A stretch of DNA of 64,000 bases from Casimicrobiaceae bacterium (lineage in GTDB: Bacteria > Pseudomonadota > Gammaproteobacteria > Burkholderiales > Casimicrobiaceae), in the NCBI GenBank assembly GCA_044223185.1, contig JBGAMF010000007.1:686-64685 (forward strand), given 5' to 3'. The first letter of the stretch is position 1. Each line of letters starts with the position of its first letter. The notes under the pieces are model-generated. The model was given only the letters and a program-made list of their open reading frames with translations, did no database searches and was not told the DNA's origin. Below are positions 43,547-59,179 of this stretch, in pieces. The position numbers and the translations under genes were made by a program.

Positions 43547-44200
43547 TCAGGCCGCCGCGGCGTGCGTCGCCGCCGCCAGCGCGTCGATCAGCGGCTGCAT
43601 CGCGGCGCGCTTCAGCTTGAGCGCGCCCGGGTGGACGACCAGCCGCGACGTGATCGGCACGATGTCCTCGACGGCCACGAGGTCGTTCGCCTTCAGCGTG
43701 TTGCCGGTCGACACGAGGTCGACGATCGCGTCGGCGAGGCCGACGAGCGGGGCCAGCTCCATCGAGCCGTACAGCTTGATGAGGTCGACGTGCATGCCCT
43801 TCGCCGCGAAGTGCTCGCGTGCGGTGCGCACGTACTTGGTCGCCACGCGAATCCGCGCGCCGCGCTGGACGGTGCCCGCCCAGTCGTACGAGCGCATCGT
43901 GGCGACGACCAGCCGGCAGCGGCCGATACCGAGGTCGAGCGGCTGGTAGAGCCCCTCGCCGCCGTGCTCGAGCAGCACGTCCTTGCCGGCCACCCCCGCG
44001 TCGGCGGCCCCGTATTGCACGTAGGTGGGCACGTCGGTCGGGCGCACGACGACGAAGGAGACGCCGGGCCGGTTGGTCGGCAGGATCAGCTTGCGCGACG
44101 TCTCGGGATCCTCGGCCGGCACGATGCCGGCCGCCGCGAACAGCGGCAGCGCTTCTTCGAGGATGCGGCCCTTGGACAGGGCGATCGTCAGCGACGACAC
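43547..44200 (-). CDS. hisG: ATP phosphoribosyltransferase, short form
   Basis: [31 protein letters not shown]; about 217 aa, no C-terminal regulatory domain; start uncertain. Confidence 0.95.
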
Positions 44201-44298
44201 GGCGGGCAGGTCACGAGGCAAAAGGCCATTCTAACCCAGCGATTTCGCGGCCCTGCCCCGCCCTGCAGCGGATCGCCCGCCGCGCCCGCGGCGCACGC

Positions 44299-44751
44299 CT
44301 ACCCGCTGCCGCCCGCGCGCCGCAGGATGGCGAGCGTGGCGGCGTCCGGAACCCCGTCGAAGAACCGGGCGAGCGCCGCGTGGAACACCGAGCCCTCGCC
44401 CGCGACCTGCGCGAAGAGCGTCACGCACGAGTGGAACTTCATCGCGTCGACGCCGCCGAGGATCGACGCCGCGCTGCGGCCCGCGTGGCCGTTCATCGCG
44501 GCGACGCACTCGCGCAGTCGCGCGCCCAGCACCGGGTGGTCGAGGTAGGCCTTCGCCTCGGGCAGCCCGGAGAGCGCGTAGCGCACCGCCATGCCGCTGG
44601 AGCCAAGCCCGCGGAGCTGCGGCAGGACGTACCAGCTCCAGTGCGTGACCTTCCGCCCGGCGCGCAACTCGGCCAGCGCGTCGGCGTAGTTGACCGCCTG
44701 CGCCCGCACGAAGCGGTCGAGGTCGAAGGGGTCGGCGGCGTGCCGGGGCAT
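44299..44751 (-). CDS. DUF1810 family protein
   Basis: DPFDLDRFV.AQ, GRK..HW.WYV.PQL.GLG.S, EA.AYL.HPVLG.RL. Confidence 0.88.
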   Translation of the reverse strand: MPRHAADPFDLDRFVRAQAVNYADALAELRAGRKVTHWSWYVLPQLRGLGSSGMAVRYALSGLPEAKAYLDHPVLGARLRECVAAMNGHAGRSAASILGGVDAMKFHSCVTLFAQVAGEGSVFHAALARFFDGVPDAATLAILRRAGGSG

Positions 44752-44779
44752 CGCGGCAACGGCCGCACGCGGCGTCGCG

Positions 44780-45775
44780 TCAGGCGATCACCGTGTCCGC
44801 GCGCGCCAGCAGGGCTTGCGGAACGGTGACGCCGAGCGCCTTCGCCGTCCGGAGGTTGACGACCAGGTCGAACTTCGTCGGCTGCTCGAGCGGGAGGTCG
44901 CCCGGACGCGCGCCGCGCAGGATGCGGTCGACGTACCGCGCGTGCTGCCGCTCCAGCGCGGGCCAGTCGGGTCCGTACGACAGCAATCCCCCCGCCTCGG
45001 CGTATTCGCGCAGCGTGAACGCGCCCGGCAGGCGGTGCTCGAGCGCGATCGCGGCGATCCGGCTGCGGTTCCGGAACGTGAGGAAGTGCGGCTCCAGCAC
45101 GAACGCCTGCACGTGCGCGCGCGCCATCGCCGGCAGCGCCGCATCCACTTCGTCCGGGCTCGCGTAGTAGAAGAACTCGAGCGCAACGCCGACCGCGCGC
45201 GCGGAGGCGCGCAGACGCCCCTCGTACTTCTCCCGCTGGCCGGGATCGGCGCGCGCGTTGGCAAGCGCGCCGAAGCGTGTTGCCGCCGGCAGGGTCTCCC
45301 TGAGGTAGGCGAGGCGCTTCGCGTCGGTCTCGCCCAGCATCCGCGACACGCCGGTGACGTTGCCGCCCGGCTTCGCGAAGCTCGCGGCGAAGCCCTCCTC
45401 CACCGGATCGACGCCGCTGAACACCATCACGATCGGAACGGCCGAGGTCGCCTGCATCGCGGCAAGCGTGTCCGATCCGCCGAAGGTGGCGATGACGTCC
45501 ACGTTGGCGCGCACGAGCTCGCGCGCCAGTGCGGGCACGAGATCCGCCTTGCCGTCCGCCGCGCGCCGCTCGAAGACCACGTTCTGCCCGTCGACCCAGC
45601 CGAGGTCGCGCAGGGCGAGCACCCAGTTCGACTGCCGGAACTCGGCGTCCGTCCGCATCCCCCCACTGGAGAGCAGGCCCACCCTGCGCACGTTCGCGGC
45701 CGGTTGCGCGCCGGCGGCCGGCACCCACGCGCCGAAGCCCAACGCGGCGCCGGCGACGAACTTGCGGCGGTCCAT
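44780..45775 (-). CDS. Orphan ABC substrate-binding protein (COG2984-like), copy 1
   Basis: MDRRKF leader; LRDLGWVDGQN, PGGNVTG, GGLLSYGPD, PGDLPLEQPTKFDLVVNL.TA. Confidence 0.88.
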   Translation of the reverse strand: MDRRKFVAGAALGFGAWVPAAGAQPAANVRRVGLLSSGGMRTDAEFRQSNWVLALRDLGWVDGQNVVFERRAADGKADLVPALARELVRANVDVIATFGGSDTLAAMQATSAVPIVMVFSGVDPVEEGFAASFAKPGGNVTGVSRMLGETDAKRLAYLRETLPAATRFGALANARADPGQREKYEGRLRASARAVGVALEFFYYASPDEVDAALPAMARAHVQAFVLEPHFLTFRNRSRIAAIALEHRLPGAFTLREYAEAGGLLSYGPDWPALERQHARYVDRILRGARPGDLPLEQPTKFDLVVNLRTAKALGVTVPQALLARADTVIA

Positions 45776-45917
45776 CACCGAGCGGCCCGGTCCACCCGGT
45801 GCGGCCACGACGGCGCGGCCACGGTTCCGCAATCGCACGCCAACCTCGAGCTCACCCCGCCTCCCCGGCCGAAATCCGGAATCGCCCGGGCCACGCTACG
45901 CCGACGCGATCCGGTGG

Positions 45918-47261
45918 TCAATCGTCAGCGCCGCCGGGCCCGCGACGACCCGGAGCATCCCGATCGTAGGCGAGGTTGCCGCCCACGTACGTCGCCCGGA
46001 TCGCGCGATCGCCGGCCAGCGCCATCTGCACGGCCAGCGCCTCGTCGACGTCGTCGACGTCGCGCATGCGGAAGTCGATCAGCGGCGTCGAGCGGAGGTC
46101 GAGCACCGCGAGGTCCGCGTCCATGCCGGGCGCGACGCTGCCGATGCGGTCGTCGACGTCGAGCGCGCGGGCGGCGCCGCGCGTGGCGAGGTAGAGCGCG
46201 CCCGCCGGCGACAGCGGCGCGCCGGCCATCTGCGCCACCTCGCACGCGGCCTGCATCGTCCGCAGCATCGAGAGGCTGGTCCCGCCGCCGACGTCGGTCG
46301 CGAGCCCGACGCGCACCGGCCGTCGAGGGTCGGTGGCGGTCGCCAGCGGGAACAGGCCGCTGCCGAGGAAGTTGTTCGACGTCGGGCAGTGCGCGAGCGC
46401 AGTCCCGGCCGCGTGCAGCGCGCGAAAGTCCGCCTCGGCGAGGTGCACGCCGTGGCCGTAGATCGTGCGCGGTCCGGTCAGGCCGTACTTCGCGTAGACG
46501 TCGAGGTACGACGCCGCGTCGGGAAAGAGCTCGGCGACGCGCGCGATCTCCGCCCGGTTCTCCGCAAGGTGCGACTGCACGTAGGCGTCGGGGTGCTCGC
46601 GCTTCAGCGCGCCCGCCGCCTCCAGCTGCGCCGGGCTCGACGTCACCGCGAAGCGCGGCGTGATCGCGTACGCGAGCCGTCCCCGGCCGTGCCAGCGCGC
46701 GATCAGCCGCTTCGACTCGTCGTAGCCGCGCTGCGCCGTGTCGAGCAAAGCGGCCGGCGCGTTGCGGTCCATCAGCACCTTGCCGGCGACCATGCGCAGG
46801 CCGAGCGCGTCGGCCTCCTCGAACAGCACGTCGACGGACGCCGCGTGCACGGTGGCGAACACCGCCGCCGTCGTGATGCCGTGGCGCAGGCTCTCGCGCA
46901 GGTAGACGCGCGCGACGGCGCGCGCGTAGGCGGCGTCGGCGAACCGCGCCTCGGCGGGAAAGGTGTACGTCGCGAGCCAGTCGAGGAGCGGCTTGCCGCC
47001 GGCGCCGATGATCGGCAACTGCGGGTAGTGGACGTGCGCGTCCACGAAGCCCGCCGTGATCAGCGCGTTCGCGTAGGCGGTCACCGGCACGCCGGCGGCG
47101 AGCCGCCGCGCCACGTCCGTCGCGGGGCCGCAGTCGCGCACGCGGCCGTCCTCGACCACGACGATGGCGTCCGGCTCGTAGCGGCGGGTAGCCGCGATCC
47201 CGTCGACGAACGGGTCGCCGGCGAAGGTGACGAGCGCGCCGCGCAGCGCGAAGGCGGTCAT
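45918..47261 (-). CDS. guaD: Guanine deaminase
   Basis: GFVDAHVHYPQ, YAITPRFA, QSHLAEN, HCPTSN.FLGSG, VGLATDVGGG. Confidence 0.92.
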   Translation of the reverse strand: MTAFALRGALVTFAGDPFVDGIAATRRYEPDAIVVVEDGRVRDCGPATDVARRLAAGVPVTAYANALITAGFVDAHVHYPQLPIIGAGGKPLLDWLATYTFPAEARFADAAYARAVARVYLRESLRHGITTAAVFATVHAASVDVLFEEADALGLRMVAGKVLMDRNAPAALLDTAQRGYDESKRLIARWHGRGRLAYAITPRFAVTSSPAQLEAAGALKREHPDAYVQSHLAENRAEIARVAELFPDAASYLDVYAKYGLTGPRTIYGHGVHLAEADFRALHAAGTALAHCPTSNNFLGSGLFPLATATDPRRPVRVGLATDVGGGTSLSMLRTMQAACEVAQMAGAPLSPAGALYLATRGAARALDVDDRIGSVAPGMDADLAVLDLRSTPLIDFRMRDVDDVDEALAVQMALAGDRAIRATYVGGNLAYDRDAPGRRGPGGADD

Positions 47262-47289
47262 CGCGTCGGCGGCCGCAGGCGGCCGGACG

Positions 47290-47697
47290 TCACGGCCCCA
47301 TTTCCGGCGGCCACTGCGCGTACTGCGGCAGCGCGTCCGTGATCTCGTGCCACGGGGCCTTCGATCCCACGAAGATGTGCTCGCGCGGTCGCACGCCCGG
47401 ATCGCCGTCGAGGGTACCCGCGGCCACCTCGCCGACGACCCCATCGTGCGTGCTGACGAGCGGCGATCCGCAGTTCCTGCAGAAGCACCGCTGCCTGCCG
47501 GGCGAGGATTCGTACCCCTGGACGAACTCCGCTCCGGACGTCCAGCGGAACTGGTCGGGGTCGAGGATCCCCCACGTCGCGAACGCCGCGCCGTGGGACT
47601 TCCGGCACTGCGAGCAGTGGCAATTGCCCAGGAACCGGAGCGACCCTGCGACTTCGTACCGCACGGATCCGCACAGGCAACTTCCGCTCAGTGCCAT
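47290..47697 (-). CDS. GFA family Zn-binding protein
   Basis: GSCLCG.VRY, CHCSQCRK, FC..CGS. Confidence 0.9.
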   Translation of the reverse strand: MALSGSCLCGSVRYEVAGSLRFLGNCHCSQCRKSHGAAFATWGILDPDQFRWTSGAEFVQGYESSPGRQRCFCRNCGSPLVSTHDGVVGEVAAGTLDGDPGVRPREHIFVGSKAPWHEITDALPQYAQWPPEMGP

Positions 47698-47791
47698 CGG
47701 GCCTCCCTCTGGGCGATCACGACGCGTGTGGGCACGCGTCCCGGGCGGCGCGTGCCCGCGGCCGACCCGCGTTCGGGCGCGGTGCCGGAGT

Positions 47792-48130
47792 TCATCGGAC
47801 CGGCCCCGTCCTGCCGCCACCCGGCGCGTCGGAGCTTGCCGAGCCCGCCCACGACGCCTTGCCCGTGAACCGGTGCACGAGCACGGGCTCCTTCGCCACG
47901 GTGCCCGCGTAGCCGACCTTGAGCGGGAACGCCCAGTAGTCGCCCTGCAGCGTCGGCTCGGCGACCGCGGCCTCCATCCGGAGTTCGGTGGCGACGAAGC
48001 GCCGCGCCACGACGGCCGCCTCGGCCTTGCCGAGGCCGCCGGCCTTCGGCGCGTCCGCGGCGATCGCCCGCGCACCCGGCCCGAGGGCCGCGCACGAAAC
48101 GAGCAGGCGGATGAAGGTGCGTCGACGCAT
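47792..48130 (-). CDS. Hypothetical exported protein
   Basis: MRRRTF Tat-like leader; short; family not recognised. Confidence 0.5.
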   Translation of the reverse strand: MRRRTFIRLLVSCAALGPGARAIAADAPKAGGLGKAEAAVVARRFVATELRMEAAVAEPTLQGDYWAFPLKVGYAGTVAKEPVLVHRFTGKASWAGSASSDAPGGGRTGPVR

Positions 48131-48209
48131 CGGTGGCGGGCTCCGGCGCCATGCTACCCGGGATGCCCCGGCATCGCCCAGGGCGAAGCGCCGGCGGAGC
48201 GGCGACGCG

Positions 48210-48641
48210 CTACGTCGCGCCCGGCGGCGGCTTCACCGGCACCGGCTGCCGGTCGCTGCGCACGAGCGCCGGATCGAGGCAGGCCCAGCCGGGCGCCATC
48301 GACGTCCAGATGTTCGCGGCCGGCTTGACCGAAGAGGGGTCGTCGAGCGTGCCCACGCGCACGACCGTGACGCCCGGGTAGCCGGACGACTCGGCGAACA
48401 GGTGGCATCCGCACTCCGGGCAGAAGCGGCGGCTGACGCGGTTGCCGCTCTCGGCGGTGCGGACGTACTCGCGGGTCGCACCGGTGACCGCGAGCGCCGG
48501 CGTGGGAAAGAGCGCGTTGACGAGCCCGTTGCCCGCGATGTGCTGGCAGTCGCGGCACCAGCAGATCCTTGCGCCGACGGGCTCCGCGGTGAGCCGGTAG
48601 CGTACGTGCCCGCAAAGGCATCCGCCGGTTCGTTCGGTCAT
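48210..48641 (-). CDS. GFA family Zn-binding protein
   Basis: GGCLCG.VRY, CWCRDCQ, RRFCPECG. Confidence 0.9.
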   Translation of the reverse strand: MTERTGGCLCGHVRYRLTAEPVGARICWCRDCQHIAGNGLVNALFPTPALAVTGATREYVRTAESGNRVSRRFCPECGCHLFAESSGYPGVTVVRVGTLDDPSSVKPAANIWTSMAPGWACLDPALVRSDRQPVPVKPPPGAT

Positions 48642-48755
48642 CGGGTCATCCTCGCGCGTGGAAGGTGGTGGGAAAGGCGGGAGCGCCGTGGACGGCGCAG
48701 GGCAACGCGATCGAACGGCGGACGCCGGGCGCGCCGACGCGGCGACGGGCGGGCG

Positions 48756-49277
48756 TCATTGCGGGGCCTTGCGGCGGGTGTACCTGCCGTCGAACGCAAC
48801 GGTCCACTCGCCCTTGTCGTTCGTGCTCTCCCACAGCTGGCGCACCGAGCCGTCCGCATCGGGAGTCCAGGTGATGCGGTGACGCGTGCGGCTTCCGTCG
48901 GCGCCGCGGACCTCGCCCTCCAGCACCATCCGGTTCGCGCGGAACGCGCCTTCGAGCACGAGCAGCAGGCCGCCGCTGTCGACCCACGTCTGGTGCCAGA
49001 CCTGGCGGCCCGCGTCGTAGACGTTGAGGCTCTCGCCCCGGTAGCCGCGCTGGGTCTCGTACCGTTCGTGGACGACGCAGCCGTCGTATTCGCTGGCGAT
49101 GCGGTTGATGCCCGCCAGCCGACCGGCCGGGCCGCGCACCTCCCACTCGCCGAGCCAGAAGTCGAACTGCCGGTGATCGGCGGTCGCGCAGGGGGTCGGC
49201 CGGGGCTGCGCGAAGCAGGCCGCTGCCGCAACCAGCAGCACGACACCCAGCGAGCGAGCGACGCGGGCAACCATCAT
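48756..49277 (-). CDS. Secreted DUF1579-like protein
   Basis: Signal peptide; QFDFWLGEW.V, W.QTWVD..G, W..AFDG.Y.R. Confidence 0.75.
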   Translation of the reverse strand: MMVARVARSLGVVLLVAAAACFAQPRPTPCATADHRQFDFWLGEWEVRGPAGRLAGINRIASEYDGCVVHERYETQRGYRGESLNVYDAGRQVWHQTWVDSGGLLLVLEGAFRANRMVLEGEVRGADGSRTRHRITWTPDADGSVRQLWESTNDKGEWTVAFDGRYTRRKAPQ

Positions 49278-49457
49278 TCGACCGACTCCTGTGGCACGGC
49301 ATCGGGAACCGCAGCCAGCGCGGGCCGGCAGTGCGCGACGGCGCACGGCGGCGGCTCGCCATCCATGCTACTACCGTCTCCGGCCAGGCGGCCCGGCGCG
49401 GACGGCCAAGATAGTTCGCCGTGCGGCGGCTCGTTCCCTGCGGCCGGCCGTGTTCGG

Positions 49458-49847
49458 TCAGGACATGGCGTCGCAGTCACGCGGCACGTTCTGGGCGATG
49501 CGCCACAGGACACCGGAGGGATCGAAGAGGACGAAGTCACGCATGCGCCAGGGCTGAAGCTCGACCGGGCCGACCTCGACGCCGTACCTGGCGGCAATAC
49601 CGGCGTCCGTGATGGCCGTGTGCCAGGCGTCCACGTCCTCGACCAGCAGGTGCATCATGAAATTCCCGGCCAGCGCCTCGGTGAAGTAGTCCTGCAGCAG
49701 GAAGCTCGCGTCCCCGTGATGGAAGTAGGCAACGCCGTCGTCATCCGACGCCATCGTGAAGCCGATGTCCCGGTAGAAGCGCTTCGACAGCGCGAAATCC
49801 TTCGCGGGCACGAAGGCCTTGATCTCGACGACGCGCAGGTCAGGCAC
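49458..49847 (-). CDS. VOC/glyoxalase family protein
   Basis: AFVPAKDF.LSKRFY, QPW.MRDF.L.DPSGVLW. Confidence 0.85.
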   Translation of the reverse strand: MPDLRVVEIKAFVPAKDFALSKRFYRDIGFTMASDDDGVAYFHHGDASFLLQDYFTEALAGNFMMHLLVEDVDAWHTAITDAGIAARYGVEVGPVELQPWRMRDFVLFDPSGVLWRIAQNVPRDCDAMS

Positions 49848-49921
49848 GGGGGTCCTCTCGGTGATGCCCGACGGCCGGCGCGCCACCGCGGCGGCGCTCC
49901 GTTCGAGCAGGGTCCGGCGCG

Positions 49922-50746
49922 TCACTTTGCGCCATTGCCGTTCGCTTCGGCGGGCAGCGCCGCGATGGAGCGAAGGACCGCCCGCACGATGGCCTGCCGC
50001 TTGTCGAGGTCGCCGGTCCTGTTCGGCGTATCGATGTTGAGCGCAAAGAAGACCGGCCCGGCAGGCCATTCGACCCAGCCGACCCACCAGCCGACCTTGC
50101 CGTCCCACCCGGTCTTGGCGCGCAGTATCCAGTCGAACTCCGCCTCGTTGATCATGAGGTCCTTGACCAGCCTCTGGTGCTCGACGCGAAACGGCAGCGC
50201 GTTCCGGTAGAGCTTGCGCAGGAACGCGACCTGTTCCTGCGCCGAGATCGCGAGGTTGCCGTCGACCCAGTAGTCGCCGGCCCGCGCCGTCGGATCCGCG
50301 TTGCCGTAGTCGGCCTCGGCGAGGTACTTCCTCGCCCGCGGCTCCCCGATCCGCTTGGCGAGGATCTGGTACACCCAGAGTGCCGACGTGCGCATCGCGG
50401 ATCGGAGGTCCTGATCCTGGTTGTGGCCCGGCCAGCGGCGCTTCACCCCGTCCCATGGAAAGACCTGGAACTCGTCGCGCACGGCGCCCGCTTCCAGCGC
50501 GAACAGCGTGTGGGGGACCTTGAACGTCGACGCCGGCGAGTACCGAGTCCCGGCGCGATGCGCGTCGTAGACGAGATGCGCCCGGCGACGCGCGCGCTCG
50601 TCGACCACGACGATCGTGCCGGTGGCGCCGGCAGCGTCGAAGTGCGTCTTCCAGTCGGGGCGCTCGGTCTGCGCCTCCCCTGCGGCACGGGCGGCCGGGA
50701 ACGAGAACAGCACGGCGGCGGCCAGGGCGACGCAGCGGATGGTCAT
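49922..50746 (-). CDS. blaOXA: Class D (OXA) beta-lactamase, OXA-2-like group
   Basis: Signal peptide; SPASTFK, S-A-L at the SxV position, YGN, KTG; long stretches match my recollection of OXA-2. Confidence 0.93.
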   Translation of the reverse strand: MTIRCVALAAAVLFSFPAARAAGEAQTERPDWKTHFDAAGATGTIVVVDERARRRAHLVYDAHRAGTRYSPASTFKVPHTLFALEAGAVRDEFQVFPWDGVKRRWPGHNQDQDLRSAMRTSALWVYQILAKRIGEPRARKYLAEADYGNADPTARAGDYWVDGNLAISAQEQVAFLRKLYRNALPFRVEHQRLVKDLMINEAEFDWILRAKTGWDGKVGWWVGWVEWPAGPVFFALNIDTPNRTGDLDKRQAIVRAVLRSIAALPAEANGNGAK

Positions 50747-50939
50747 CAGCCGTTGGCTCGACGCCCGGGCACGAGTCGACGGGCGCGCAGCGGCAAGGCT
50801 GCCCGGCCGCTTGCCCGGCGGGCCAAGCGACACCGGCGGGCGCCGCGCGCGGCCGACAATCGCCAGCGGCGGTTCGGCAGGTGGAAGCCCGGCATCCGCC
50901 GCGTGGGTGGCCGGGTTTGCCGAAAGCGCCATGCGTCGG

Positions 50940-51623
50940 TCAGAACGCCTTGGGGTCGATGCCGACCACCGGGTCCCTGGACTCCAGTGCCGGTGAATCG
51001 ACCGCCTTCACGACATGGTCGTCCTCGACGTACCCGGAGATCCTGATCGGCTGCGACCGCCCGCCGATCGAGGGGCGCCGGATCGGCAGGTACCGGATCT
51101 CGTAGGTCCCGGCAGGCAGGTCACGGAACGCGAACACGCTTCGTTCCTGCACGAACGCGTGGCGCAGACCGGGACAAGACTGCTTGCCGGCTTCGCAGAG
51201 CTTCACGTAGATCCCGTGGGAACTTGCCCTCACCACGATTACACCATGACCACCCTGCGCCGCCTGCCGCATGTCGAGGTAACCGGTGCTCGCGGGCCAC
51301 GACTTTCCGACGGGAGGCGCAAGAGGCGCGATGCTGGCGTCTCTCGTGGAGGTCGAACGATAGGACTTGAAGGCGTTCGACGGCTCAGCGGGAGCGAGGG
51401 CCAGGTAAGCCGTCGCCAGGGCCGCGGCTACGACCGCAAGCACCACGAGAATCGTGGTCCCGGCGTTGCGCTTGCCGGTCTTGTCGCTCCGGCGGGCGGC
51501 GACCCACGAAATGACGGCGAGCAGCGCGAGCACGGGAGCCAGGACGAGCGCAAACTCGCCGGCCGCATGGACGACCAGCTTCGGGAATGCGCCGATCATG
51601 AAGCGCCAATCCGGGCCGACCAT
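50940..51623 (-). CDS. Hypothetical membrane-anchored protein
   Basis: AAAGGA SD before ATG 51623; two N-terminal TM helices; WP..TGY, YVKL, PAG.YEIRY soluble domain. Confidence 0.6.
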   Translation of the reverse strand: MVGPDWRFMIGAFPKLVVHAAGEFALVLAPVLALLAVISWVAARRSDKTGKRNAGTTILVVLAVVAAALATAYLALAPAEPSNAFKSYRSTSTRDASIAPLAPPVGKSWPASTGYLDMRQAAQGGHGVIVVRASSHGIYVKLCEAGKQSCPGLRHAFVQERSVFAFRDLPAGTYEIRYLPIRRPSIGGRSQPIRISGYVEDDHVVKAVDSPALESRDPVVGIDPKAF

Positions 51624-51903
51624 GTCCTTTTGCGCGTGCACGGGCCGCGCGACCAGCAGTGCAAGCGTCGACCATGCGGGCTCTCCCCGACGCCACGTCG
51701 CCGCGCGCTTGCCGCCCGAAACGATCGGCACACGGCCGACACCGAATCGGCGTCGACACCGACCGCAACTGGCCCGCCGCGCCCGTCGGACCAACGACGG
51801 CAGGCTCGATCCTTCGTGCAGAAGCCGTCGGTCGGCCTCGTGCCCTGCCGGATTTCGACCCGCTCCGATCACTGCAATTTCGCCATTGCAGACATGCGCG
51901 GCC

Positions 51904-52881
51904 CTACTGGATGACCCTGTCTGCACGCGCGAGGACGCCGGGCGGGATCGTCAGGCCGATCCTCCTGGCGGTGTTCAGATTGACGACCAACTCGAACTTC
52001 GCCGGCTGGAGGACCGGGAGATCGGCGGGCTTCGCGCCATTGAGTATTCTGGCCACGTAGAGGGCGGCCTGACGATCGCGGTCCGCGATGCTCTGGGTGT
52101 AGGCCAACAGGCCGCCAGCGTCCGCAAAGCCCTGCCCGGGGGAGGACGACGCGAGCCGATGCTGCATCGCCAGCTCGACGGCACGCTTGTGCGGAAGGCT
52201 CGGCTGGACGATGAGGGCGCTTGCTCGCGCCTTGCCTATGTCCTCGAAGGCGGCGTCCAGCGGCTCGCCGCCGCGCACCGAGAAGATGCGCAGCTCGATG
52301 CCCAGCGACCGGGCGGCGAACTGGTTCTGTTCCAGGAACGTCTTCGTGAAGGTGTCCGCCGCGTTCACGAGCACGGCGACGTGCCTCGCGGAGGGCACGA
52401 TCTGCCGGATCAATTCGAGGTTCTTGGCCGCAAGCTCCGCGGTTGCACTGGATATTCCCGTGACGTTGCCACCGGGCCGGGCGAGGCTGGCGACGAGCCC
52501 CGTTCCCACCGGATCGGCTGCCGCCGCCATGACGATCGGAATCGTCGTCGTGGCCCGTTTGGCCGCCAGGGCGGCCGGTGTCTGGAACGAAACGATGACG
52601 TCGACGTTCAGGCGCACGAGCTCGACGGCCAGCTCGGCCAGACGATCGTTGTTACCTTCAGCCCAGCGCGACTCGACAGCGAGGTTCGTGCCTTCGACAT
52701 AGCCATGGTCCCGCAGGTTCGCCACCAGGGCGGGGGCCCAGCTCGTGCCGCCGGCAACGAAGCCCGGCCCCAGCAGACCGATACGCGCGGGCTTCGCGGC
52801 AGGCGCCTGCGCCAGCACCGACAACGGCGCGGCGAAGGCGCCGGCACCCAGCGCGATGACCAGTTTGCGGCGATGGCTCAA
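51904..52881 (-). CDS. Orphan ABC substrate-binding protein (COG2984-like), copy 2
   Basis: GGAG SD and TTG start; LRDHGYVEGTNL, DPVGTGLVASLARPGGNVTG, PADLPV.QP.KFELVVNL. Confidence 0.88.
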   Translation of the reverse strand: MSHRRKLVIALGAGAFAAPLSVLAQAPAAKPARIGLLGPGFVAGGTSWAPALVANLRDHGYVEGTNLAVESRWAEGNNDRLAELAVELVRLNVDVIVSFQTPAALAAKRATTTIPIVMAAAADPVGTGLVASLARPGGNVTGISSATAELAAKNLELIRQIVPSARHVAVLVNAADTFTKTFLEQNQFAARSLGIELRIFSVRGGEPLDAAFEDIGKARASALIVQPSLPHKRAVELAMQHRLASSSPGQGFADAGGLLAYTQSIADRDRQAALYVARILNGAKPADLPVLQPAKFELVVNLNTARRIGLTIPPGVLARADRVIQ

Positions 52882-53086
52882 TTCGGCTCCTCGGAGGGCT
52901 GCCATTATGTCAAGTTGCGCCGAGGGCAGCATACGAAGGGCTCGCGGCCGGATGCGGGCGCCGATCGGCGATCGAATGCAAACCGGCATGCACTGCCGCG
53001 TGACCCCGGTCGCCGTACGGCAGGTTACGGCACGGCGCCGGCTCGTCATGGAACGACGAAACGGATGGCAATGCGGTGTTCGCGCG

Positions 53087-53176
53087 GCCTGACGGAATGG
53101 CTGACCGGCGGGCCGCGCCAGTGCGGACCAACGTCGAGCCGCATGCCGGCGCGTCCGCTCGAGTGCACGGGCGGGC
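53087..53176 (-). repeat. Degenerate attC (core GTCAGGC, inverse core eroded)
   Basis: GCCTGAC-ggaat-ggctgaccgg...ccgctcgagt-gcacg-GGCGGGC; arm layout like 63511-63591. Confidence 0.55.
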
Positions 53177-53213
53177 CGAAACGCATCGTCCGGCTCGACT
53201 CGATGCAGCACGC

Positions 53214-53316
53214 TCAGTCGGGAAACAGGACTTCGAAGAGCGCCCTGGCCTTTGGCGACAGGTTCCTGGGGTCCGGACGAAGCAGATCGTCGTCGGGCAC
53301 CAATCGGAACCCGGCG
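53214..53316 (-). pseudogene. 3' remnant of an unidentified gene (...AGFRLVPDDDLLRPDPRNLSPKARALFEVLFPD*)
   Basis: Protein-like C-terminus with no start, between the YciI stop and a degenerate attC. Confidence 0.35.
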
Positions 53317-53658
53317 TCAGGACTCCGGATCGTACTGGAACACGCGCAGCTCCTGGTCGCAGCGGCAGGCCTTCGCGATGCGAGCGGCCCATTCGACTGC
53401 CTCCTTGCGCGAGGGAAGTTCGAGCACGGCGAATCCGCCGTCGAGAGGAGCGGCCCACGGATATCCGCCCTCGGCGACTGCGCCATCACCCGAGACGAGT
53501 GCGGGACGAACGGTCTCGTCGATGCCGCCTGCGAAGACATAGACGCCGGCGGCCTTCGCCTCGCCGATCACCGCGTGCGCGTCGCGGCCCACCGTCTCCC
53601 ACTCGCCGTCGGGCACCGCCATCGCCGCGCTTGGAAACGAGATCAGGTACTTGGCCAT
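53317..53658 (-). CDS. YciI/DGPF family protein
   Basis: AAGGAG SD; MAKYLI, AGVYVFAGG, GGFAVLELPSR.EA.EWAA. Confidence 0.85.
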   Translation of the reverse strand: MAKYLISFPSAAMAVPDGEWETVGRDAHAVIGEAKAAGVYVFAGGIDETVRPALVSGDGAVAEGGYPWAAPLDGGFAVLELPSRKEAVEWAARIAKACRCDQELRVFQYDPES

Positions 53659-53693
53659 GCGATTCTCCTTCGGCGAGTAAAGTCGCGGGCCTC

Positions 53694-53795
53694 GGCGAAC
53701 GGTTCCTGCCGGCCGGCGAGCCGGGGAAGGCGGCGGCCCGCCGCGAGCGAAAACCGCGGCTGCAGTGCAGCGTCCGCTTGCGTGGATCGTCAGAC
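53694..53795 (-). repeat. Degenerate attC (inverse core GTCTGAC holding the upstream TGA; core GTTCGCC)
   Basis: Minus strand GTCTGAC-gatcc-acgcaagcggacg...gccggccggcaggaacc-GTTCGCC. Confidence 0.45.
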
Positions 53796-54287
53796 CGTCG
53801 TCCGGCCACGAACCGCCGCCTCGATCACCGCGACGTCGATCTTCTTCATCGTCATCATTGCATCGAAGGCACGCTTGGCTGCGGAGCGATCCGGACCGGT
53901 ATACGCTTTGGTCAACGCGATTGGCGTGATCTGCCAGGAGATGCCCCACTTGTCTTTGCACCAGCCGCATTCGCTCTCCTGGCCGCCGTTGGAGACGATC
54001 GCGTTCCAGTAGCGATCCGTTTCGGCCTGATCCTCGGTGGCGACCTGGAACGAGAACGCTTCGCTGTGCTTGAACGCAGGCCCGCCGTTCAGCCCGAGAC
54101 AGCGAACACCCATCACGGTGAACTCTACCGTCAGCACGTCCCCCAGCCTGCCCGACGGAAAGTCGCCGGGGGCGCGATGAACCGCGCCGAGGGACGAATC
54201 GGGAAAGGTGTCGGCGTAGAACTGCGCAGCTTCCTCGGCATCGCGTTCGTACCAGAGGCAAATCGTATTCTTTGCAATCCTCGTCAT
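53790..54287 (-). CDS. PhnB-like VOC family protein (3-demethylubiquinone-9 3-methyltransferase domain)
   Basis: ICLWY...AEEAA.FY, GLNGGP.F..SEAFSF, CGWCKDKWGISWQI. Confidence 0.9.
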   Translation of the reverse strand: MTRIAKNTICLWYERDAEEAAQFYADTFPDSSLGAVHRAPGDFPSGRLGDVLTVEFTVMGVRCLGLNGGPAFKHSEAFSFQVATEDQAETDRYWNAIVSNGGQESECGWCKDKWGISWQITPIALTKAYTGPDRSAAKRAFDAMMTMKKIDVAVIEAAVRGRTTV

Positions 54288-54485
54288 GCCGCTCTCCCAT
54301 CGAGATCGGAGCGAGCGCCTGCGCCGCTCCCGGATGAAGTCGCCGTGGGTTCCCAGGACCTGGCTGGCAGGTCAGGAGTCCGGGCTTCCCGGAGGTCCGA
54401 CATCCTGCCAGCCAGGTTGGGCATGTTCGGTCGCCGACATTCTCTCCTGACACGCCGGACATCTCGGTAGCGCCACCGTCCTTCC

Positions 54486-54564
54486 GCCAAACGCCCAAAC
54501 TCAGCCGTGGCGCCAGCTTCGCGCAAGCAGATCTGGTGAGGTCGGCTGGAGTGCGTCGTTGGGC
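54486..54564 (-). repeat. attC site
   Basis: GCCAAAC...actcagccg / cggctgGagt (extrahelical G)...GTTGGGC; 79 bp. Confidence 0.8.
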
Positions 54565-54604
54565 GGCATCCGTGAAGAGTCCGCCATCCTCTGAACGAGC
54601 GCGA

Positions 54605-55066
54605 CTACGCCTCGTTGTAGGCTCTCTCGAGCTCGGCCACGTCGAGCTTCACCATCGTCATCATGGCTTCCATCACGGCCTTCACCTTCCTGGGGTTCCT
54701 ATCACGGATCAGCTCGGTGAATCGTCGGGGGACGATTTGCCAGGAAAGACCGAACGGGTCCTTGATCCAACCGCATTGCGTGGGCTTCGCTCCTGCCTTC
54801 ACGAGCTTTTCCCAGTACTCATCCACTTCATCCTGATCCGCGCAGTCCACGTAGAGCGAAACCCCCTCGGAGAAGCTGAAGTACGGACCTCCGTTGTAGC
54901 CCATGAAGCGTTGACCGCCGACGACGAACTCGGCGGAACTGACAGGACCGTCCCTGCCCGTGCGGGCGACGTTGCGTACTTCGGAGTCGGGAAACGTCGC
55001 GGTGTAGAACTCGATGGCCGCTTCGAGCTGGTCGTTGAACATGAGGAAGGGCGTCACCTTGTTCAT
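54605..55066 (-). CDS. PhnB-like VOC family protein
   Basis: KVTPFLMF, YNGGPYF, CGWIKDPFGLSWQIVP; start re-called to ATG 55066. Confidence 0.9.
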   Translation of the reverse strand: MNKVTPFLMFNDQLEAAIEFYTATFPDSEVRNVARTGRDGPVSSAEFVVGGQRFMGYNGGPYFSFSEGVSLYVDCADQDEVDEYWEKLVKAGAKPTQCGWIKDPFGLSWQIVPRRFTELIRDRNPRKVKAVMEAMMTMVKLDVAELERAYNEA

Positions 55067-55102
55067 GGGAATGTCTTCTCCGTGAGTGCGATGCTCTTCT
55101 CC

Positions 55103-55159
55103 GCCCAACGTAGAGTTCGGCGGCGGCCGGCGGCCGTCCGTTGCAACGGCCTGTTGGGC
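55103..55159 (-). repeat. attC site (short, 57 bp)
   Basis: GCCCAAC-gtaga-gttcggcgg...ccgttGcaac-ggcct-GTTGGGC. Confidence 0.9.
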
Positions 55160-55232
55160 AGCTTCTTCACTCGTGCCTTGCCACGGCCGGGTGGTGTCCC
55201 GATTGCGGTGGAAACGGCGGCGCGGCCTTCGG

Positions 55233-55400
55233 TCATTGAATGACGTGATCCGCCCGCAGCAGCACCGACTGCGGGAGGGTGAGGCCCAGGGCCTTCGCGG
55301 TCTTCATGTTGATCACGAGTTCGAATTCGGTCGGCAGCTCGGCGGGCTTTGCCCCCTTGAGGATCTTGTCCACATAGGTGGCGTCCCGCCGGAAGAGTTC
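55233..55400 (-). pseudogene. 3' fragment of COG2984-like substrate-binding protein (copy 3)
   Basis: [55 protein letters not shown]; no 5' part; lacks the usual VEQP. Confidence 0.85.
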
Positions 55401-55559
55401 GACAAAGCTCGGTGCCGGTGACCGTCCCCGCCGACTCCTGGGCCAGGATGCCGACGATCTGCTCATCTGAAAACTTGCTCTTGCGCATGGGCTCCTCCGG
55501 TGGTCAATATACCCGGCAGAGCGTCACCTACCTTGGCCTGGAATTCGGGCGGAAAGTCA
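55400..55559 (-). mobile_element. Truncated IS3-family element (left end plus 30 codons of OrfA)
   Basis: TG-initiated end at 55559; [37 protein letters not shown] then abrupt junction. Confidence 0.8.
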
Positions 55560-55720
55560 AACCCGATCCGCTGCCGCCAGCCACCAGGCGGAAGAGCGGG
55601 ACCGGTGCCGCCTCCTCGGTGCGCAGCGAGCCTTGCATCCAGGAAGACCCCGGCCATTCGCGCAATGCCGCCGGCCAGCGGTGCCGGGAACAGCGCGGCG
55701 ACAATGCGCGATCGCATCAC

Positions 55721-55789
55721 GCCCACCGTTCGAGGAAACGCGGGACCAGCATTGGGACGCCTGGCCCGCCGCTGGGCCTCGTGTTGGCC
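55721..55789 (-). repeat. Possible heavily degenerate attC
   Basis: Minus strand GGCCAAC 14 nt after a stop, cagcggcgggcc arm, GTGGGC end; poor pairing. Confidence 0.3.
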
Positions 55790-55802
55790 GAGGGGTAGGG
55801 AT

Positions 55803-56315
55803 TCACTGCCTGCCAACAGCAGCAGGCTGCCTTTTGGCCACTGCTTGATCCGAGCGCAGGAAGAAGTCCGCAGGCGAGCGGAGCCATTCCCTCTTCTGGT
55901 TATCCCAGTGCGCGCGTTGCCAGCCATTGGGCTCTACGAGGGTCGAGGCCCAGGACGGGACCTCTTCTCCCGGTGCTTGTCCAAGCCCCGCCAAAAAGCA
56001 AACTTCCTCGCCGGTCCGGGTCCTGACGCGTCTTGTTCCAAAGGTGAAAGGCGACTCCAGACCGCTGAAGTCGCGCGCGGTTGTTCCACCGTAGACCTTG
56101 CGGCTTCCCGCAAGGCAGACCACATGGCTGCGTAGACAGGCCAGGAAAGCCTTACACAAGCCCTTCATGGGCTCGTCACTGCAGCCTTTGTTTCCCGTTA
56201 GATTGGGGATGACCAAACCACCGGCCGTCTCCGCAGCCTCGCAGGTGTTCGCATCGGCGGGACTGCAGGTCAGCGCGACAGCGGTGAACGCTGCGATGGC
56301 AATTGACAGGTTCAT
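55803..56315 (-). CDS. Hypothetical secreted Cys-containing protein (cassette)
   Basis: Starts 7 nt after a core site; signal peptide; several Cys; no family recognised. Confidence 0.6.
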   Translation of the reverse strand: MNLSIAIAAFTAVALTCSPADANTCEAAETAGGLVIPNLTGNKGCSDEPMKGLCKAFLACLRSHVVCLAGSRKVYGGTTARDFSGLESPFTFGTRRVRTRTGEEVCFLAGLGQAPGEEVPSWASTLVEPNGWQRAHWDNQKREWLRSPADFFLRSDQAVAKRQPAAVGRQ

Positions 56316-56321
56316 TGCGAG

Positions 56322-56405
56322 GCCTGACGGACAAAGCCAATCGGCCGCGAGCGGACGGCGCGCCAGCGCCGCCGGCGGGCGGTCCGGTTGAGCGAGGGTT
56401 CAGGC
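56322..56405 (-). repeat. attC-like site with GAC/GTC variant R boxes
   Basis: GCCTGAC-ggaca-aagccaatcgg-ccgc...gcggT-ccggttGagc-gagg-GTTCAGGC; both extrahelical bases present. Confidence 0.7.
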
Positions 56406-56427
56406 CGCAAGCAATGCCGCGAGGCGC

Positions 56428-56880
56428 TCATCGGATGAGGCGTGCACGCGCTTGAAGGACTTGCGGAATCGTGAGCCCGAGCGACTTCGCGGTCGCCATG
56501 TTTATGGAGAGCTCGAACCCGGTGGCCTGCTGGATCGGCAGATCACCGGGTTCGCCCCCTTCAGCAACTTGTCCACCAACGCGCCAGCGCGTCGATACCC
56601 TTCGAGCCGGTACGGGCCGTAGCCGATCACGCCGCCGGCGTCGGCGTACTCGTTGATCGCGGACGCCGAAACCAATCGATGCTTCAATGTCGACTCGGCG
56701 ACGGCTCGGGCGTTTACGGCGAACATGGTATCGCCTTGCACGAGCGCGGTATCGCACCGCGCTCTCTCAGCCTTGTCAAGGAAACCGGCGAGCTCAGCCG
56801 GCGTCCGCGCCTCGAACATCGACAGACGATTCTTGAACCACGCCGCCGTAGACTGCATCGCCGGCGTGCTTGTCGTGTGA
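56428..56880 (-). pseudogene. 3' half of COG2984-like substrate-binding protein (copy 4), frameshifted near 56549
   Basis: EYADAGGVIGYGP...VDKLLKGANP / GDLPIQQATGFELSINMATAKSLG in two frames; no start. Confidence 0.8.
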
Positions 56881-56910
56881 TCCGCAGGATTGGCAAGGTA
56901 CGCTACGCGC

Positions 56911-56917
56911 GTTAGGC
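56911..56917 (-). repeat. Isolated inverse core (GCCTAAC) of a truncated attC
   Basis: GTTAGGC on + strand, 7 nt beyond the dehydrogenase stop; no matching arm. Confidence 0.5.
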
Positions 56918-56924
56918 GTCAACA

Positions 56925-57872: not shown

Positions 57873-57889
57873 CTGCTGCCTCCATTGAC

Positions 57890-57979
57890 GCCTGACGAAA
57901 AAGGCGAGCGGCGCGCCGCCGCGGCGCCCGCCAAGTAGAAGCTGCGTACCGACGCGTCCGCTCGACCGCAGGATCAGGC
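57890..57979 (-). repeat. attC-like site with GAC/GTC variant R boxes
   Basis: GCCTGAC-gaaaa-aggcgagcgg-cgcg...cgcgT-ccgctcgAcc-gcagg-ATCAGGC; holds the hicB TGA. Confidence 0.75.
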
Positions 57980-58185: not shown

Positions 58186-58195
58186 CTGGTTCCCC

Positions 58196-58383: not shown

Positions 58384-58426
58384 GCGCGGGATTATGCGCT
58401 CTCGGCCACGAGCTTCTCAACCTGAG

Positions 58427-59059: not shown

Positions 59060-59092
59060 TGATCTTCCGAGGCGACGAACGGTGATTCGGAG

Positions 59093-59170: not shown

Positions 59171-59179
59171 CGCACGCTG

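What the first reader, a model, noticed from the sequence alone, without database searches (positions are those of the whole stretch)
49922..50746. Environmental OXA-2-like beta-lactamase with S-A-L at the SxV motif
Seen: an intact ORF with signal peptide, STFK, YGN and KTG, and MRTSALW where class D enzymes usually have S-x-V. Segments such as LAISAQEQ.AFLRKLYRN.LPFRVEHQRLVKDLMI and FFALNIDTPNR match my recollection of OXA-2, a clinical class 1 integron cassette. Established: Val to Leu at this position alters carbapenem turnover in the OXA-10 variant OXA-655. The OXA-2 tail that overlaps its attC is replaced by LPAEANGNGAK. Inference: an ex-cassette from a reservoir lineage of the OXA-2 group, possibly with a shifted spectrum.
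Basis: partly seen in the sequence, partly recalled or inferred. Interest (0 to 1): 0.65.

Follow-up and report, generated by a model that had tools for sequence, protein, structure and literature searches.

The report
Chromosomal OXA-2-like beta-lactamase, probable former cassette
This is an intact gene for a secreted penicillin-destroying enzyme, a fairly distant (67%) relative of the clinical enzyme OXA-2, in the chromosome of an uncultured soil or water bacterium; its "unusual" Ser-Ala-Leu motif is the norm in its environmental branch, so it is a sound but ordinary find.

Summary
Window 49922-50746 (minus strand) encodes an intact 274-residue class D beta-lactamase with a signal peptide, S73-T-F-K76, S121-A-L123, Y147-G-N, W160 and K211-T-G.

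- **Relation to OXA-2:** It is 66.7% identical to OXA-2 (69% for the mature part). It passes NCBI's general class D model but not the OXA-2 family model. It lies in a well-supported sister clade of the OXA-2/OXA-46 clade.
- **The S-x-L motif:** Leu is not special. It occurs in 50 of 51 cluster representatives closer to this protein than to OXA-2. It nearly always comes with Val, instead of Ile, at the omega-loop residue it packs against.
- **The C-terminal tail:** The tail is typical of the clade, not a local replacement.
- **Genome context:** The gene is accessory (2 of 138 genomes of the genus). It lies 2.3 kb beyond the last significant attC of a chromosomal integron array, on the cassette strand. 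Its third-codon-position G+C (GC3, 0.90) is host-like, and it is under purifying selection (dN/dS 0.26). Sister lineages have single-gene differences around it.
- **Cassette history:** Relatives 67-70% identical are true attC-flanked cassettes, as is blaOXA-2. The attC-like relic after this gene is not significant on its own. "Former cassette" is therefore probable, not proven.
- **Activity:** The substrate spectrum is untested.

The parts
49922..50746 (-). Class D (OXA-type) beta-lactamase gene, 274 codons plus TGA
   Evidence: ORF and translation. NCBIfam bla_class_D_main scores 274 bits against a cut-off of 250. PDB OXA-2 1K38 matches at E 1.7e-118. The AlphaFold model matches 1K38 with TM-score 0.92 normalised to the target. 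dN/dS against the sister lineage is 0.26.
50684..50746 (-). Signal peptide, residues 1-21 (MTIRCVALAAAVLFSFPAARA), with predicted cleavage after A-R-A
   Evidence: Read directly from the sequence: a basic n-region, a hydrophobic core and an AxA site. The mature OXA-2 chain in 1K38 aligns from residue 25. In the model, residues 2-14 form a helix and residues 19-22 have low confidence. No signal-peptide predictor was available.
50519..50530 (-). S73-T-F-K76: the nucleophilic serine and the lysine that is carboxylated in class D enzymes
   Evidence: Positions. S73 and K76 are invariant in the 38-sequence alignment.
50378..50386 (-). S121-A122-L123, the 'SxV' box with Leu (TCG GCA CTC)
   Evidence: Leu is the rule in this clade.
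50264..50269 (-). W160-V161: the omega-loop Trp and the residue that packs against position 123
   Evidence: Across 161 relatives the pairs are L with V in 84 and V with I in 44. In OXA-10/OXA-655 residue 117 contacts L155, the residue after W154 (PMC7459404).
50300..50308 (-). Y147-G-N149 motif
   Evidence: invariant in the alignment.
50108..50116 (-). K211-T-G213 motif
49866..49918 (-). 53-nt attC-like relic starting 3 nt after the stop codon. It reads GCCGGAC (R''-like), CCT, GCTCGAAC (L''-like), a GC-rich stem, then GTCGGGC (R'-like). The L' box and spacer are missing.
   Evidence: The attC covariance model R1 places it end to end but gives only 10.2 bits. That is E 2.9 over the whole window and E 0.051 in a 1.1-kb local search. 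Its 5' half resembles the attC after the OXA cassette of L006.
50747..50939 (-). 193-nt spacer upstream of the start codon. It holds GTCGAGC (50756-50762) 9 nt before the ATG, at the place where cassette relatives have the R' core GTTRGGC. It also holds an in-frame upstream ATG at 50932.
   Evidence: The homologous spacer in L104 has attC-like matches of 15.3 and 16.7 bits, the second ending 9 nt before the start position. In the window itself nothing here is significant. No sigma-70-like promoter was found.
49458..49850 (-). VOC/glyoxalase-family gene directly downstream (GTG start, GAGAGGA ribosome-binding site)
   Evidence: Pfam Glyoxalase E 1.2e-8. It is present after OXA in the P0002/3 lineage and absent in the P0004 lineage.
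50940..51926 (-). Upstream ORF of unknown function (328 codons as listed; 310 in L104)
   Evidence: In the P0002/3 lineage this place is taken by MAPEG and SMR genes.
53087..53176 (-). Last statistically significant attC of the integron array on the chromosome side, 2.3 kb from the OXA start
   Evidence: R1 gives 38.9 bits, E 3e-7, and this site was not in the training set.
45918..47261 (-). Guanine deaminase, the first gene on this side with synteny across the genus
   Evidence: Pfam Amidohydro_1. DNA matches in same-genus genomes end at about window 47250. Named relatives are from Burkholderiales and Betaproteobacteria.

Best explanation
The gene encodes a functional, periplasmic class D serine beta-lactamase.

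**Mechanism, inferred from the family.** The protein is exported by the Sec pathway and its signal peptide is cut after Ala21. Ser73 attacks the beta-lactam carbonyl. Lys76, carboxylated by CO2 and shielded by Trp160 and the hydrophobic residues around it (Leu123, Val161), acts as general base for acylation and deacylation. Ser121, Tyr147-Gly-Asn and Lys211-Thr-Gly line the site. A narrow-spectrum penicillinase/oxacillinase like OXA-2 is the most likely activity.

**Place in the family.** It belongs to a large environmental clade, mostly from Betaproteobacteria, that is sister to the clade holding OXA-2 and OXA-46. In that clade the third residue of the SxV box is Leu, and the omega-loop residue after the Trp is Val instead of Ile. 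That is a like-for-like exchange of one methylene between two residues that touch. The Leu is therefore a clade trait, probably compensated, and not a recent spectrum-shifting mutation.

**Genome history.** The gene is accessory in an uncultured Burkholiales bacterium. It most likely entered as an integron gene cassette. It then ended up at the far end of the chromosomal array next to core genes, lost a working attC, and took on host codon usage. It has since been inherited vertically and kept by selection.

**Shown:** the ORF, motifs, fold, clade, context, composition, purifying selection, and the cassette state of relatives.
**Inferred:** enzymatic activity, spectrum, export, and the cassette past.
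For: **Enzyme**
- NCBIfam class D equivalog scores 274 bits against a cut-off of 250. The best family models are OXA-2, OXA-46, OXA-20 and OXA-732 at 398-425 bits, against about 212 for OXA-48 and OXA-62.
- PDB OXA-2 and OXA-46 match at E 1e-116 to 1e-119.
- The model has pLDDT 81 and matches 6XJ3, 1K38 and 3IF6 best, with TM-score 0.90-0.93.
- All catalytic residues are invariant in the alignment.
- dN/dS is 0.26 against the 90% identical sister lineage. Its dS of 0.20 is close to the 0.175 of the neighbouring guanine deaminase gene.

**Clade and motif**
- Trees of 112 and 161 sequences place it in a 52-54-row clade (SH-aLRT 97-99). That clade is separate from the 34-row clade with OXA-2 and OXA-46 (97), inside a 99-row group (99).
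- Leu is in 50 of 51 representatives nearer to this protein.
- L with V occurs 84 times and V with I 44 times, with 10 other V/L-with-V/I/L combinations.

**Context**
- The homologue search hits 2 of the 138 genomes searched in the genus: the window's own, and one other with a 67% copy.
- Synteny with the genus ends at guanine deaminase.
- Significant attC sites span 53087-63591 on the same strand.
- The integron integrase is on contig C164 at 470 bits against a cut-off of 265.
- GC3 is 0.905, against 0.58-0.61 in cassette homologues and 0.51 in blaOXA-2.
- Sister lineages carry the gene at the same locus, with single-gene gains or losses on both sides.
- L006 and L011 have OXA genes flanked by attC on both sides. 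L013 has one immediately upstream. The same model finds the attC of blaOXA-2 at 23.9 bits.
- L104 keeps attC-like relics just before the gene, at 15.3 and 16.7 bits. No match in 94 kb of core sequence reaches 16.7.
Against:
- No sigma-70-like promoter and no clear Shine-Dalgarno sequence precede the ATG. The gene lies more than 14 kb from the attI end of the array, beyond the contig end.
- The attC-like sequence after the stop codon scores only 10.2 bits. Thirty-three matches at least as good occur in the 47 kb of core sequence on both strands. The chance of one in a given 71-nt spacer is about 0.025, which is suggestive only.
- The 5' boundary similarity is weak.
- The L/V pairing rests on few independent changes. 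Only 4 pairs lie on well-supported branches (3 in the same direction, none opposite, one with no difference), which is not significant.
- A second genome of the genus has a 67% copy next to a similar DUF1579-like gene. This could instead mean an old chromosomal gene lost in most species.
Confidence: 0.8

Rival explanations
1. The gene is an old intrinsic chromosomal gene that was never a cassette. It merely lies next to the integron and has been lost from most species of the genus.
For: - Host-like GC3 of 0.905.
- No significant attC on either side.
- A dS equal to that of the neighbouring core gene.
- A 67% homologue in G068 next to a DUF1579-like gene that is 64% identical to the window's.
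Against: - It is present in only 2 of 138 genomes of the genus, which would need very many losses.
- It sits on the array side of the point where genus synteny ends.
- It is on the cassette strand among short co-oriented genes of cassette-typical families, with single-gene differences between lineages 88-90% identical.
- Members of the same clade are true cassettes.
- attC-like relics lie just before the gene in L104.
Confidence: 0.2
2. It is still a mobile, excisable cassette with an unusually short attC that the model underrates.
For: The 53-nt element begins 3 nt after the stop codon and has R''-like and R'-like ends that can pair: GCCGGAC with GTCGGGC, one mismatch.
Against: - The L' box and the unpaired spacer are missing, and the score is at background level.
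- The model does find short sites (the 57-nt site at 55103-55159) and foreign sites (blaOXA-2).
- The OXA-VOC junction is conserved at 91% between lineages rather than reshuffled.
Confidence: 0.05
3. It is a beta-lactamase whose Leu123 gives it a carbapenem-shifted spectrum, as in OXA-655.
For: - V117L in OXA-10 raises ertapenem and meropenem hydrolysis and lowers oxyimino-cephalosporin hydrolysis (PMC7459404).
- Integron-borne OXA-2/OXA-46-like variants from river sediment raised ertapenem MICs 21-63-fold in E. coli (PMC5732528).
Against: - The effect was measured in another subfamily, about 34% identical.
- Here Leu comes with Val instead of Ile at the contact residue, which may restore the original packing.
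- Leu is ancestral to a whole environmental clade, so no recent selection for a new spectrum is implied.
Confidence: 0.2
4. It is a silent or decaying gene with no present function.
For: - No recognisable promoter or strong ribosome-binding site.
- The P0004 lineage has CTG where the window has the ATG start.
Against: - dN/dS is 0.26 over 67 substitutions.
- All catalytic residues and the signal peptide are intact.
- The ORF is intact in at least four diverged lineages.
Confidence: 0.07

Closest known systems
OXA-2 (class 1 integron cassette; PDB 1K38, 6XJ3)
   Same: Same fold (TM-score 0.92) and same length class (274 against 275 residues). Same catalytic boxes STFK, YGN, KTG and WWVGW. Long identical stretches, for example LPFRVEHQRLVKDLMI and FFALNIDTPNR.
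   Different: - Only 66.7% identical (69.4% for the mature part).
- Below the NCBIfam OXA-2 family cut-off, 424.8 against 590 bits.
- In the sister clade.
- S-A-L with W-V instead of S-T-V with W-I.
- A different C-terminal tail that is not encoded by an attC.
- Chromosomal, with GC3 0.90 against 0.51.
OXA-46 (PDB 3IF6), and the OXA-20 and OXA-732 families
   Same: These are the next-best family models, at 413, 409 and 398 bits. Identity to OXA-46 is 68.3%.
   Different: All scores are below the family cut-offs of 585-600 bits. OXA-46 groups with OXA-2, not with this protein.
Environmental attC-flanked OXA cassettes in chromosomal integrons of uncultured Betaproteobacteria (loci L006, L011, L013), and integron-borne OXA-2/OXA-46-like variants from river sediment (Razavi et al. 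2017, PMC5732528)
   Same: L006 and L013 are in the same S-x-L clade and are 70% identical. They have a similar tail and the same gene length. L006 has attC on both sides, and L013 has one upstream plus an R''/L''-like half-site after its stop codon.
   Different: The window's copy has lost recognisable attC sites. It has host-like codon usage and sits at a fixed locus shared by sister lineages.
OXA-655 (OXA-10 T26M/V117L)
   Same: Leu at the third position of the SxV box. The paper itself writes the motif as S-X-V/L (PMC7459404).
   Different: It belongs to a different subfamily; OXA-10 is about 34% identical. In OXA-655 the Leu is a recent single change on a V/L155 background. Here Leu is ancestral and paired with Val161.

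Membership tests
Class D (OXA-type) serine beta-lactamase | S-x-x-K box with the nucleophilic Ser and the carboxylatable Lys | tested here: met
   S73-T-F-K76. Both S73 and K76 are invariant in 38 relatives.
Class D (OXA-type) serine beta-lactamase | S-x-V/I box, Y-G-N box, K-T-G box and omega-loop Trp | tested here: met
   S121-A-L123 (the Leu variant, described in the literature as S-X-V/L), Y147-G-N, K211-T-G and W160.
Class D (OXA-type) serine beta-lactamase | Score above the curated cut-off of NCBIfam NF012161 (bla_class_D_main, equivalog) | tested here: met
   274 bits against a cut-off of 250.
Class D (OXA-type) serine beta-lactamase | Class D fold | tested here: met
   The AlphaFold2 model (pLDDT 81, pTM 0.80) has its best PDB matches in 6XJ3, 1K38 and 3IF6, with TM-score 0.90-0.93 normalised to the target.
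Class D (OXA-type) serine beta-lactamase | Secreted: N-terminal signal peptide | tested here: inconclusive
   A typical Sec signal by inspection, and the protein aligns to the mature OXA-2 chain from residue 25. No predictor was available. An in-frame ATG 62 codons upstream (50932) cannot be excluded as the start.
Class D (OXA-type) serine beta-lactamase | Hydrolysis of beta-lactams that depends on lysine carboxylation | not testable with these tools
   This needs enzyme assays.
OXA-2 family (NCBIfam NF000267 blaOXA-2_like) | Score above the curated cut-off | tested here: not met
   424.8 bits against a cut-off of 590.
OXA-2 family (NCBIfam NF000267 blaOXA-2_like) | Falls in the clade that holds OXA-2 | tested here: not met
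   It falls in a sister clade with SH-aLRT 97-99. OXA-2 and OXA-46 are in a separate 34-row clade with support 97. These were quick searches with SH-aLRT support only.
Integron gene cassette | An attC recombination site at the 3' end of the gene | tested here: not met
   The best match is 49866-49918 at 10.2 bits, E 2.9 over the window, which is background level. The local E is 0.051. It has the form of a relic: R''/L''-like 5' half and R'-like end, with the L' box missing.
Integron gene cassette | A 5' boundary at an R' core (G|TTRRRY) shortly before the start codon | tested here: inconclusive
   GTCGAGC lies 9 nt before the ATG, where L006, L011, L013 and blaOXA-2 have GTTRGGC 15-17 nt before their starts. 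The homologous site in L104 scores 16.7 bits. The window's own copy is not significant.
Integron gene cassette | Lies in an array next to an integron integrase, on the cassette strand | tested here: inconclusive
   It is on the same strand as the array. The intI gene is in the genome on contig C164. However, the gene lies 2.3 kb beyond the last significant attC, and the link between C53 and C164 is inferred.
Integron gene cassette | Homologues occur as cassettes | tested here: met
   L006 (attC at 14-139 and 980-1108 around the gene at 172-975), L011 (7886-7976 and 8783-8842), L013 (7837-7965 upstream), and blaOXA-2 (2292-2361).

The most novel reading that the evidence does not exclude
The S-x-L/W-V clade, to which this gene and many attC-flanked cassettes belong, may be a functionally distinct subfamily of OXA-2-like enzymes. 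Its coupled pair of residues (123 and 161 here) would set a different balance between carbapenem and cephalosporin turnover than the S-x-V/W-I pair of OXA-2 and OXA-46. If so, environmental integrons of Betaproteobacteria would hold a ready-made, mobile pool of such enzymes. This locus would show how one of them becomes a fixed chromosomal gene.
Probability: 0.15. Interest if true: 0.55.

Novelty: new member of a known kind. Interest (0 to 1): 0.3.

Why it matters
It adds one more environmental relative to a clinically known enzyme family, with no sign of present mobility and no close relative on any plasmid in PLSDB (the best match is OXA-2 itself at 68%).

Three side results may be of some use:
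- The Leu of the SxV box is the normal state of a large environmental clade. It travels with a compensating change at its contact residue. This cautions against reading single-motif differences as spectrum shifts.
- Members of the OXA-2 supergroup, from both sister clades, are true cassettes in chromosomal integrons of uncultured Betaproteobacteria. They share a 5' boundary with clinical blaOXA-2, which points to the kind of pool that blaOXA-2 came from.
- The locus is a plausible example of a cassette that has been fixed and recoded at the far end of an array.

Tried and rejected
- **Regular-expression scan for attC:** a loose expression for attC cores over the whole genome returned mostly chance GCTCGAC...GTCGAGC pairs in this 72% G+C genome. 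I replaced it with a covariance model built from ten array sites.
- **Match at 50693-50770:** the model's match here (11 bits) spans the start codon and signal-peptide codons, so I discarded it as chance.
- **Promoter and terminator scan:** no promoter was found, and the one terminator-like site lies inside the gene.
- **Source project:** a paper search for the project accession of the sister contigs (PRJEB19935) found nothing.
- **Label of L004:** the 'Thermoanaerobaculia' label does not give the host, because the core genes have Burkholderiales relatives.
- **Independent-pairs test:** the test of the L/V pairing had too few supported pairs to reach significance.
- **L106 and L108:** the model found no convincing attC near the 78% homologue in L106 or the 67% homologue in L108.
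Full report
**1. The observation**

Window 49922-50746 on the minus strand is an open frame of 274 codons ending in TGA. The product starts with a typical Sec signal (MTIRCVALAAAVLFSFPAARA, then AGE). It carries S73-T-F-K76, S121-A-L123, Y147-G-N149, W160 and K211-T-G213. The Leu codon is CTC at 50378-50380.

**2. What the protein is**

- NCBI's general class D model is passed, at 274 bits against a cut-off of 250.
- The four best family models are OXA-2 (424.8), OXA-46 (413), OXA-20 (409) and OXA-732 (398). All are far below their cut-offs of 585-600 bits and far above OXA-48 and OXA-62 at about 212.
- Identity to OXA-2 is 66.7% over the precursor and 69.4% over the mature part. Identity to OXA-46 is 68.3%.
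- An AlphaFold2 model (pLDDT 81) finds 6XJ3, 1K38 and 3IF6 as its best solved matches, with TM-score 0.90-0.93.
- In PLSDB the nearest plasmid gene is blaOXA-2 itself at 68%. No record exceeds 80%.

The protein is therefore a class D beta-lactamase of the wider OXA-2 group, but not a member of the OXA-2 family as NCBI delimits it.

**3. Where it sits in the family**

A search of 5.8 billion proteins gave 1941 hits at E 1e-40 or better. Most are unnamed metagenome proteins. The named ones come from Rhodoferax, Thauera, Azoarcus, Noviherbaspirillum and Nitrosomonadales.

Trees of 112 and 161 sequences give a 99-row group (SH-aLRT 99) with two main branches:
- a 34-row clade (97) with OXA-2, OXA-46, a Thauera chromosome gene and marine Gammaproteobacteria;
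- a 52-54-row clade (97-99) with the window's protein.

Environmental proteins 86-88% identical to OXA-2 exist in the first clade. The window's lineage is therefore not the source of blaOXA-2.

**4. The S-A-L motif**

Among the 109 motif-matched sequences of the best 121, the box reads STL in 33, SAL in 32, SAV in 25 and STV in 15. Of the representatives nearer to this protein than to OXA-2, 50 have Leu and 1 has Val. Of those nearer to OXA-2, 44 have Val and 21 have Leu. Leu is thus the normal state of the clade.

The OXA-655 paper confirms that V117L in OXA-10 raises carbapenem hydrolysis and lowers oxyimino-cephalosporin hydrolysis. It attributes this partly to the packing of residue 117 on L155, the residue after the omega-loop Trp (PMC7459404). 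I therefore tabulated that second position. In 161 relatives the pairs are Leu with Val in 84 and Val with Ile in 44, with only 10 other V/L-with-V/I/L combinations. This is against a minimum of 14 Val/Leu changes on the tree. One methylene group appears to move from one partner to the other. Only four independent contrasts lie on well-supported branches (three in the same direction, none opposite, one with no difference), so the pairing is suggestive and not proven. It does mean that the OXA-655 effect cannot simply be transferred.

**5. The tail**

In blaOXA-2 the last eleven codons are the 5' half of its attC: GCCCAAC, CCGGC, AGTCAAC and so on. My model finds that attC at L103 2292-2361, across the stop codon.

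The window's tail, ALPAEANGNGAK, is shared by its nearest relatives (ALPAEANGNGAR in P0002 and P0003, with close variants in P0004 to P0007). In L006, a true cassette of the same clade, the tail ALPNEPGKGGAR is followed by the stop codon, and only then by the attC. The tail is a clade trait, not a replacement at this locus.

**6. Genome context**

- **Host.** The genome is a metagenome-assembled one (192 contigs, 93% complete). Relatives of the neighbouring guanine deaminase are named Burkholderiales or Betaproteobacteria.
- **Rarity.** Only 2 of 138 genomes of the genus have an OXA-2-like gene. These are the window's own and G068, which has a 67% copy.
- **Synteny.** DNA synteny with the genus covers hisG and guanine deaminase and stops at about 47250.
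- **Earlier notes.** Earlier notes of this scan describe an integron cassette array at 53-64 kb with the integrase on another contig.
- **My check of the array.** I rebuilt this independently. Ten attC sites of the array align with 83.5% of cells paired and clear covariation. The model built from them (R1) finds significant sites only at 53087-63591, all on the minus strand, including two that were not used for training. The integron integrase model hits contig C164 at 470 bits.
- **Position.** The OXA gene lies 2.3 kb beyond the last significant attC, on the cassette strand. It sits among short co-oriented genes (ABC-type binding protein, an unknown ORF, OXA, VOC, DUF1579-like, GFA, a small secreted protein, GFA).

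**7. Was it a cassette?**

*For.*
- OXA genes 67-70% identical are true cassettes in arrays of uncultured Betaproteobacteria. L006 and L011 have attC on both sides and L013 has one upstream.
- Those cassettes and blaOXA-2 share the 5' boundary GTTRGGC followed by [GA]T[CT]AA(A)GGAA.
- Lineages whose OXA is 88-90% identical carry the gene at the same locus, but with single-gene differences on both sides. The VOC gene is present or absent, and so are a 217-residue gene and a GFA gene. MAPEG plus SMR stand in place of the unknown ORF.
- In the P0002/3 lineage a significant attC lies one gene upstream of OXA, at L094 5186-5279.
- In the P0004 lineage two attC-like relics of 15.3 and 16.7 bits fill the spacer before the gene, the second ending 9 nt before the start position. 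No match in 94 kb of the window's core reaches 16.7 bits.
- GC3 rises along the array from 0.56-0.68 at the attI-side end to 0.85-0.92 at the far end. OXA has 0.905, against 0.58-0.61 in the cassette homologues.

*Against.*
- The 53-nt element after the stop codon (49866-49918) has R''- and L''-like boxes much like those of L006 and an R'-like end. It lacks the L' box and scores 10.2 bits. Thirty-three matches at least as good occur in the core part of the window. The chance of one in this particular 71-nt spacer is about 0.025.
- Nothing upstream in the window is significant.

My estimate is about two chances in three that the gene is a former cassette that became fixed.

**8. Is it kept?**

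Against the sister lineage (L094) the gene has dN 0.052, dS 0.201 and dN/dS 0.26. The neighbouring guanine deaminase has dS 0.175 and dN/dS 0.22, and the other neighbours are alike. The block has thus diverged together with the chromosome, under purifying selection.

Expression is an open point. No sigma-70-like promoter was found. The ribosome-binding site seen in the cassette relatives is eroded.

**9. Verdict**

This is a real, probably active, ordinary environmental class D beta-lactamase. It is a new member of a known kind. Its interpretation is partly right on the family neighbourhood and the likely cassette past. It is wrong on the rarity of S-A-L, on the tail and on the reservoir role.

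Noticed in passing
L004 (CAZQTL010000089.1) against window 43939-58746: A 15.8-kb contig of a MAG labelled 'uncultured Thermoanaerobaculia' is 99.66% identical to the window over 14.8 kb. The window's core genes have Burkholderiales relatives. The contig is probably mis-binned or mislabelled.
   Followed up: partly
window 50378-50380 (L123) and 50264-50266 (V161): Across 161 OXA-2-group sequences, residue 3 of the SxV box and the residue after the omega-loop Trp pair as L with V (84) or V with I (44), with 10 other combinations. This looks like volume-conserving co-variation at two residues known to touch in OXA-10.
   Followed up: partly
L104 5253-5456; window 50744-50934: The P0004 lineage has CTG where the window has the ATG start codon. 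Gene callers therefore extended the ORF 67 codons upstream, through two attC-like relics, to a conserved ATG 8 nt after the previous gene's stop. That ATG is also present in the window at 50932.
   Followed up: partly
window 47290-53000 against L094, L104 and L105: There are single-gene presence/absence differences around OXA between lineages that are 87-93% identical in DNA. They involve the VOC gene, a 217-residue gene, one GFA gene, and MAPEG plus SMR against a 310-328-residue ORF. The window keeps the last 20 nt of the 217-residue gene.
   Followed up: partly
window 47290-63487: GC3 of the co-oriented genes rises from 0.56-0.68 near the attI-side end (59-63 kb), through 0.78-0.81 (53-55 kb), to 0.85-0.92 next to the core genes. 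This fits older cassettes lying farther from attI.
   Followed up: partly
L006 100-160, L011 7940-8003, L013 7935-7990, L103 1440-1503: Environmental OXA cassettes and clinical blaOXA-2 share the 5' cassette boundary: GTTRGGC, then [GA]T[CT]AA(A)GGAA, then the start codon 15-17 nt after the core. In L011, as in blaOXA-2, the attC begins inside the last codons of the gene.
   Followed up: no
L108 (G068:C8), 434-2959: The only other genome of the genus with a homologue has a 67% identical, intact OXA (S-T-L, W-V). It lies between a VOC-like gene plus a membrane protein and a DUF1579-like gene that is 64% identical to the window's.
   Followed up: partly
L106 1-14057: The 78% homologue P0007 lies in a run of 22 co-oriented small genes. 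These include two PF00144 (class C-type fold) beta-lactamase-family genes, methyltransferases and HicB. The array-trained attC model found no site there.
   Followed up: no
window 44204-45955: Relative to same-genus genome G061, an orphan ABC-type binding-protein gene and a DUF1810 gene are inserted between hisG and guanine deaminase. Accessory genes thus also lie on the core side of the first syntenic gene.
   Followed up: no
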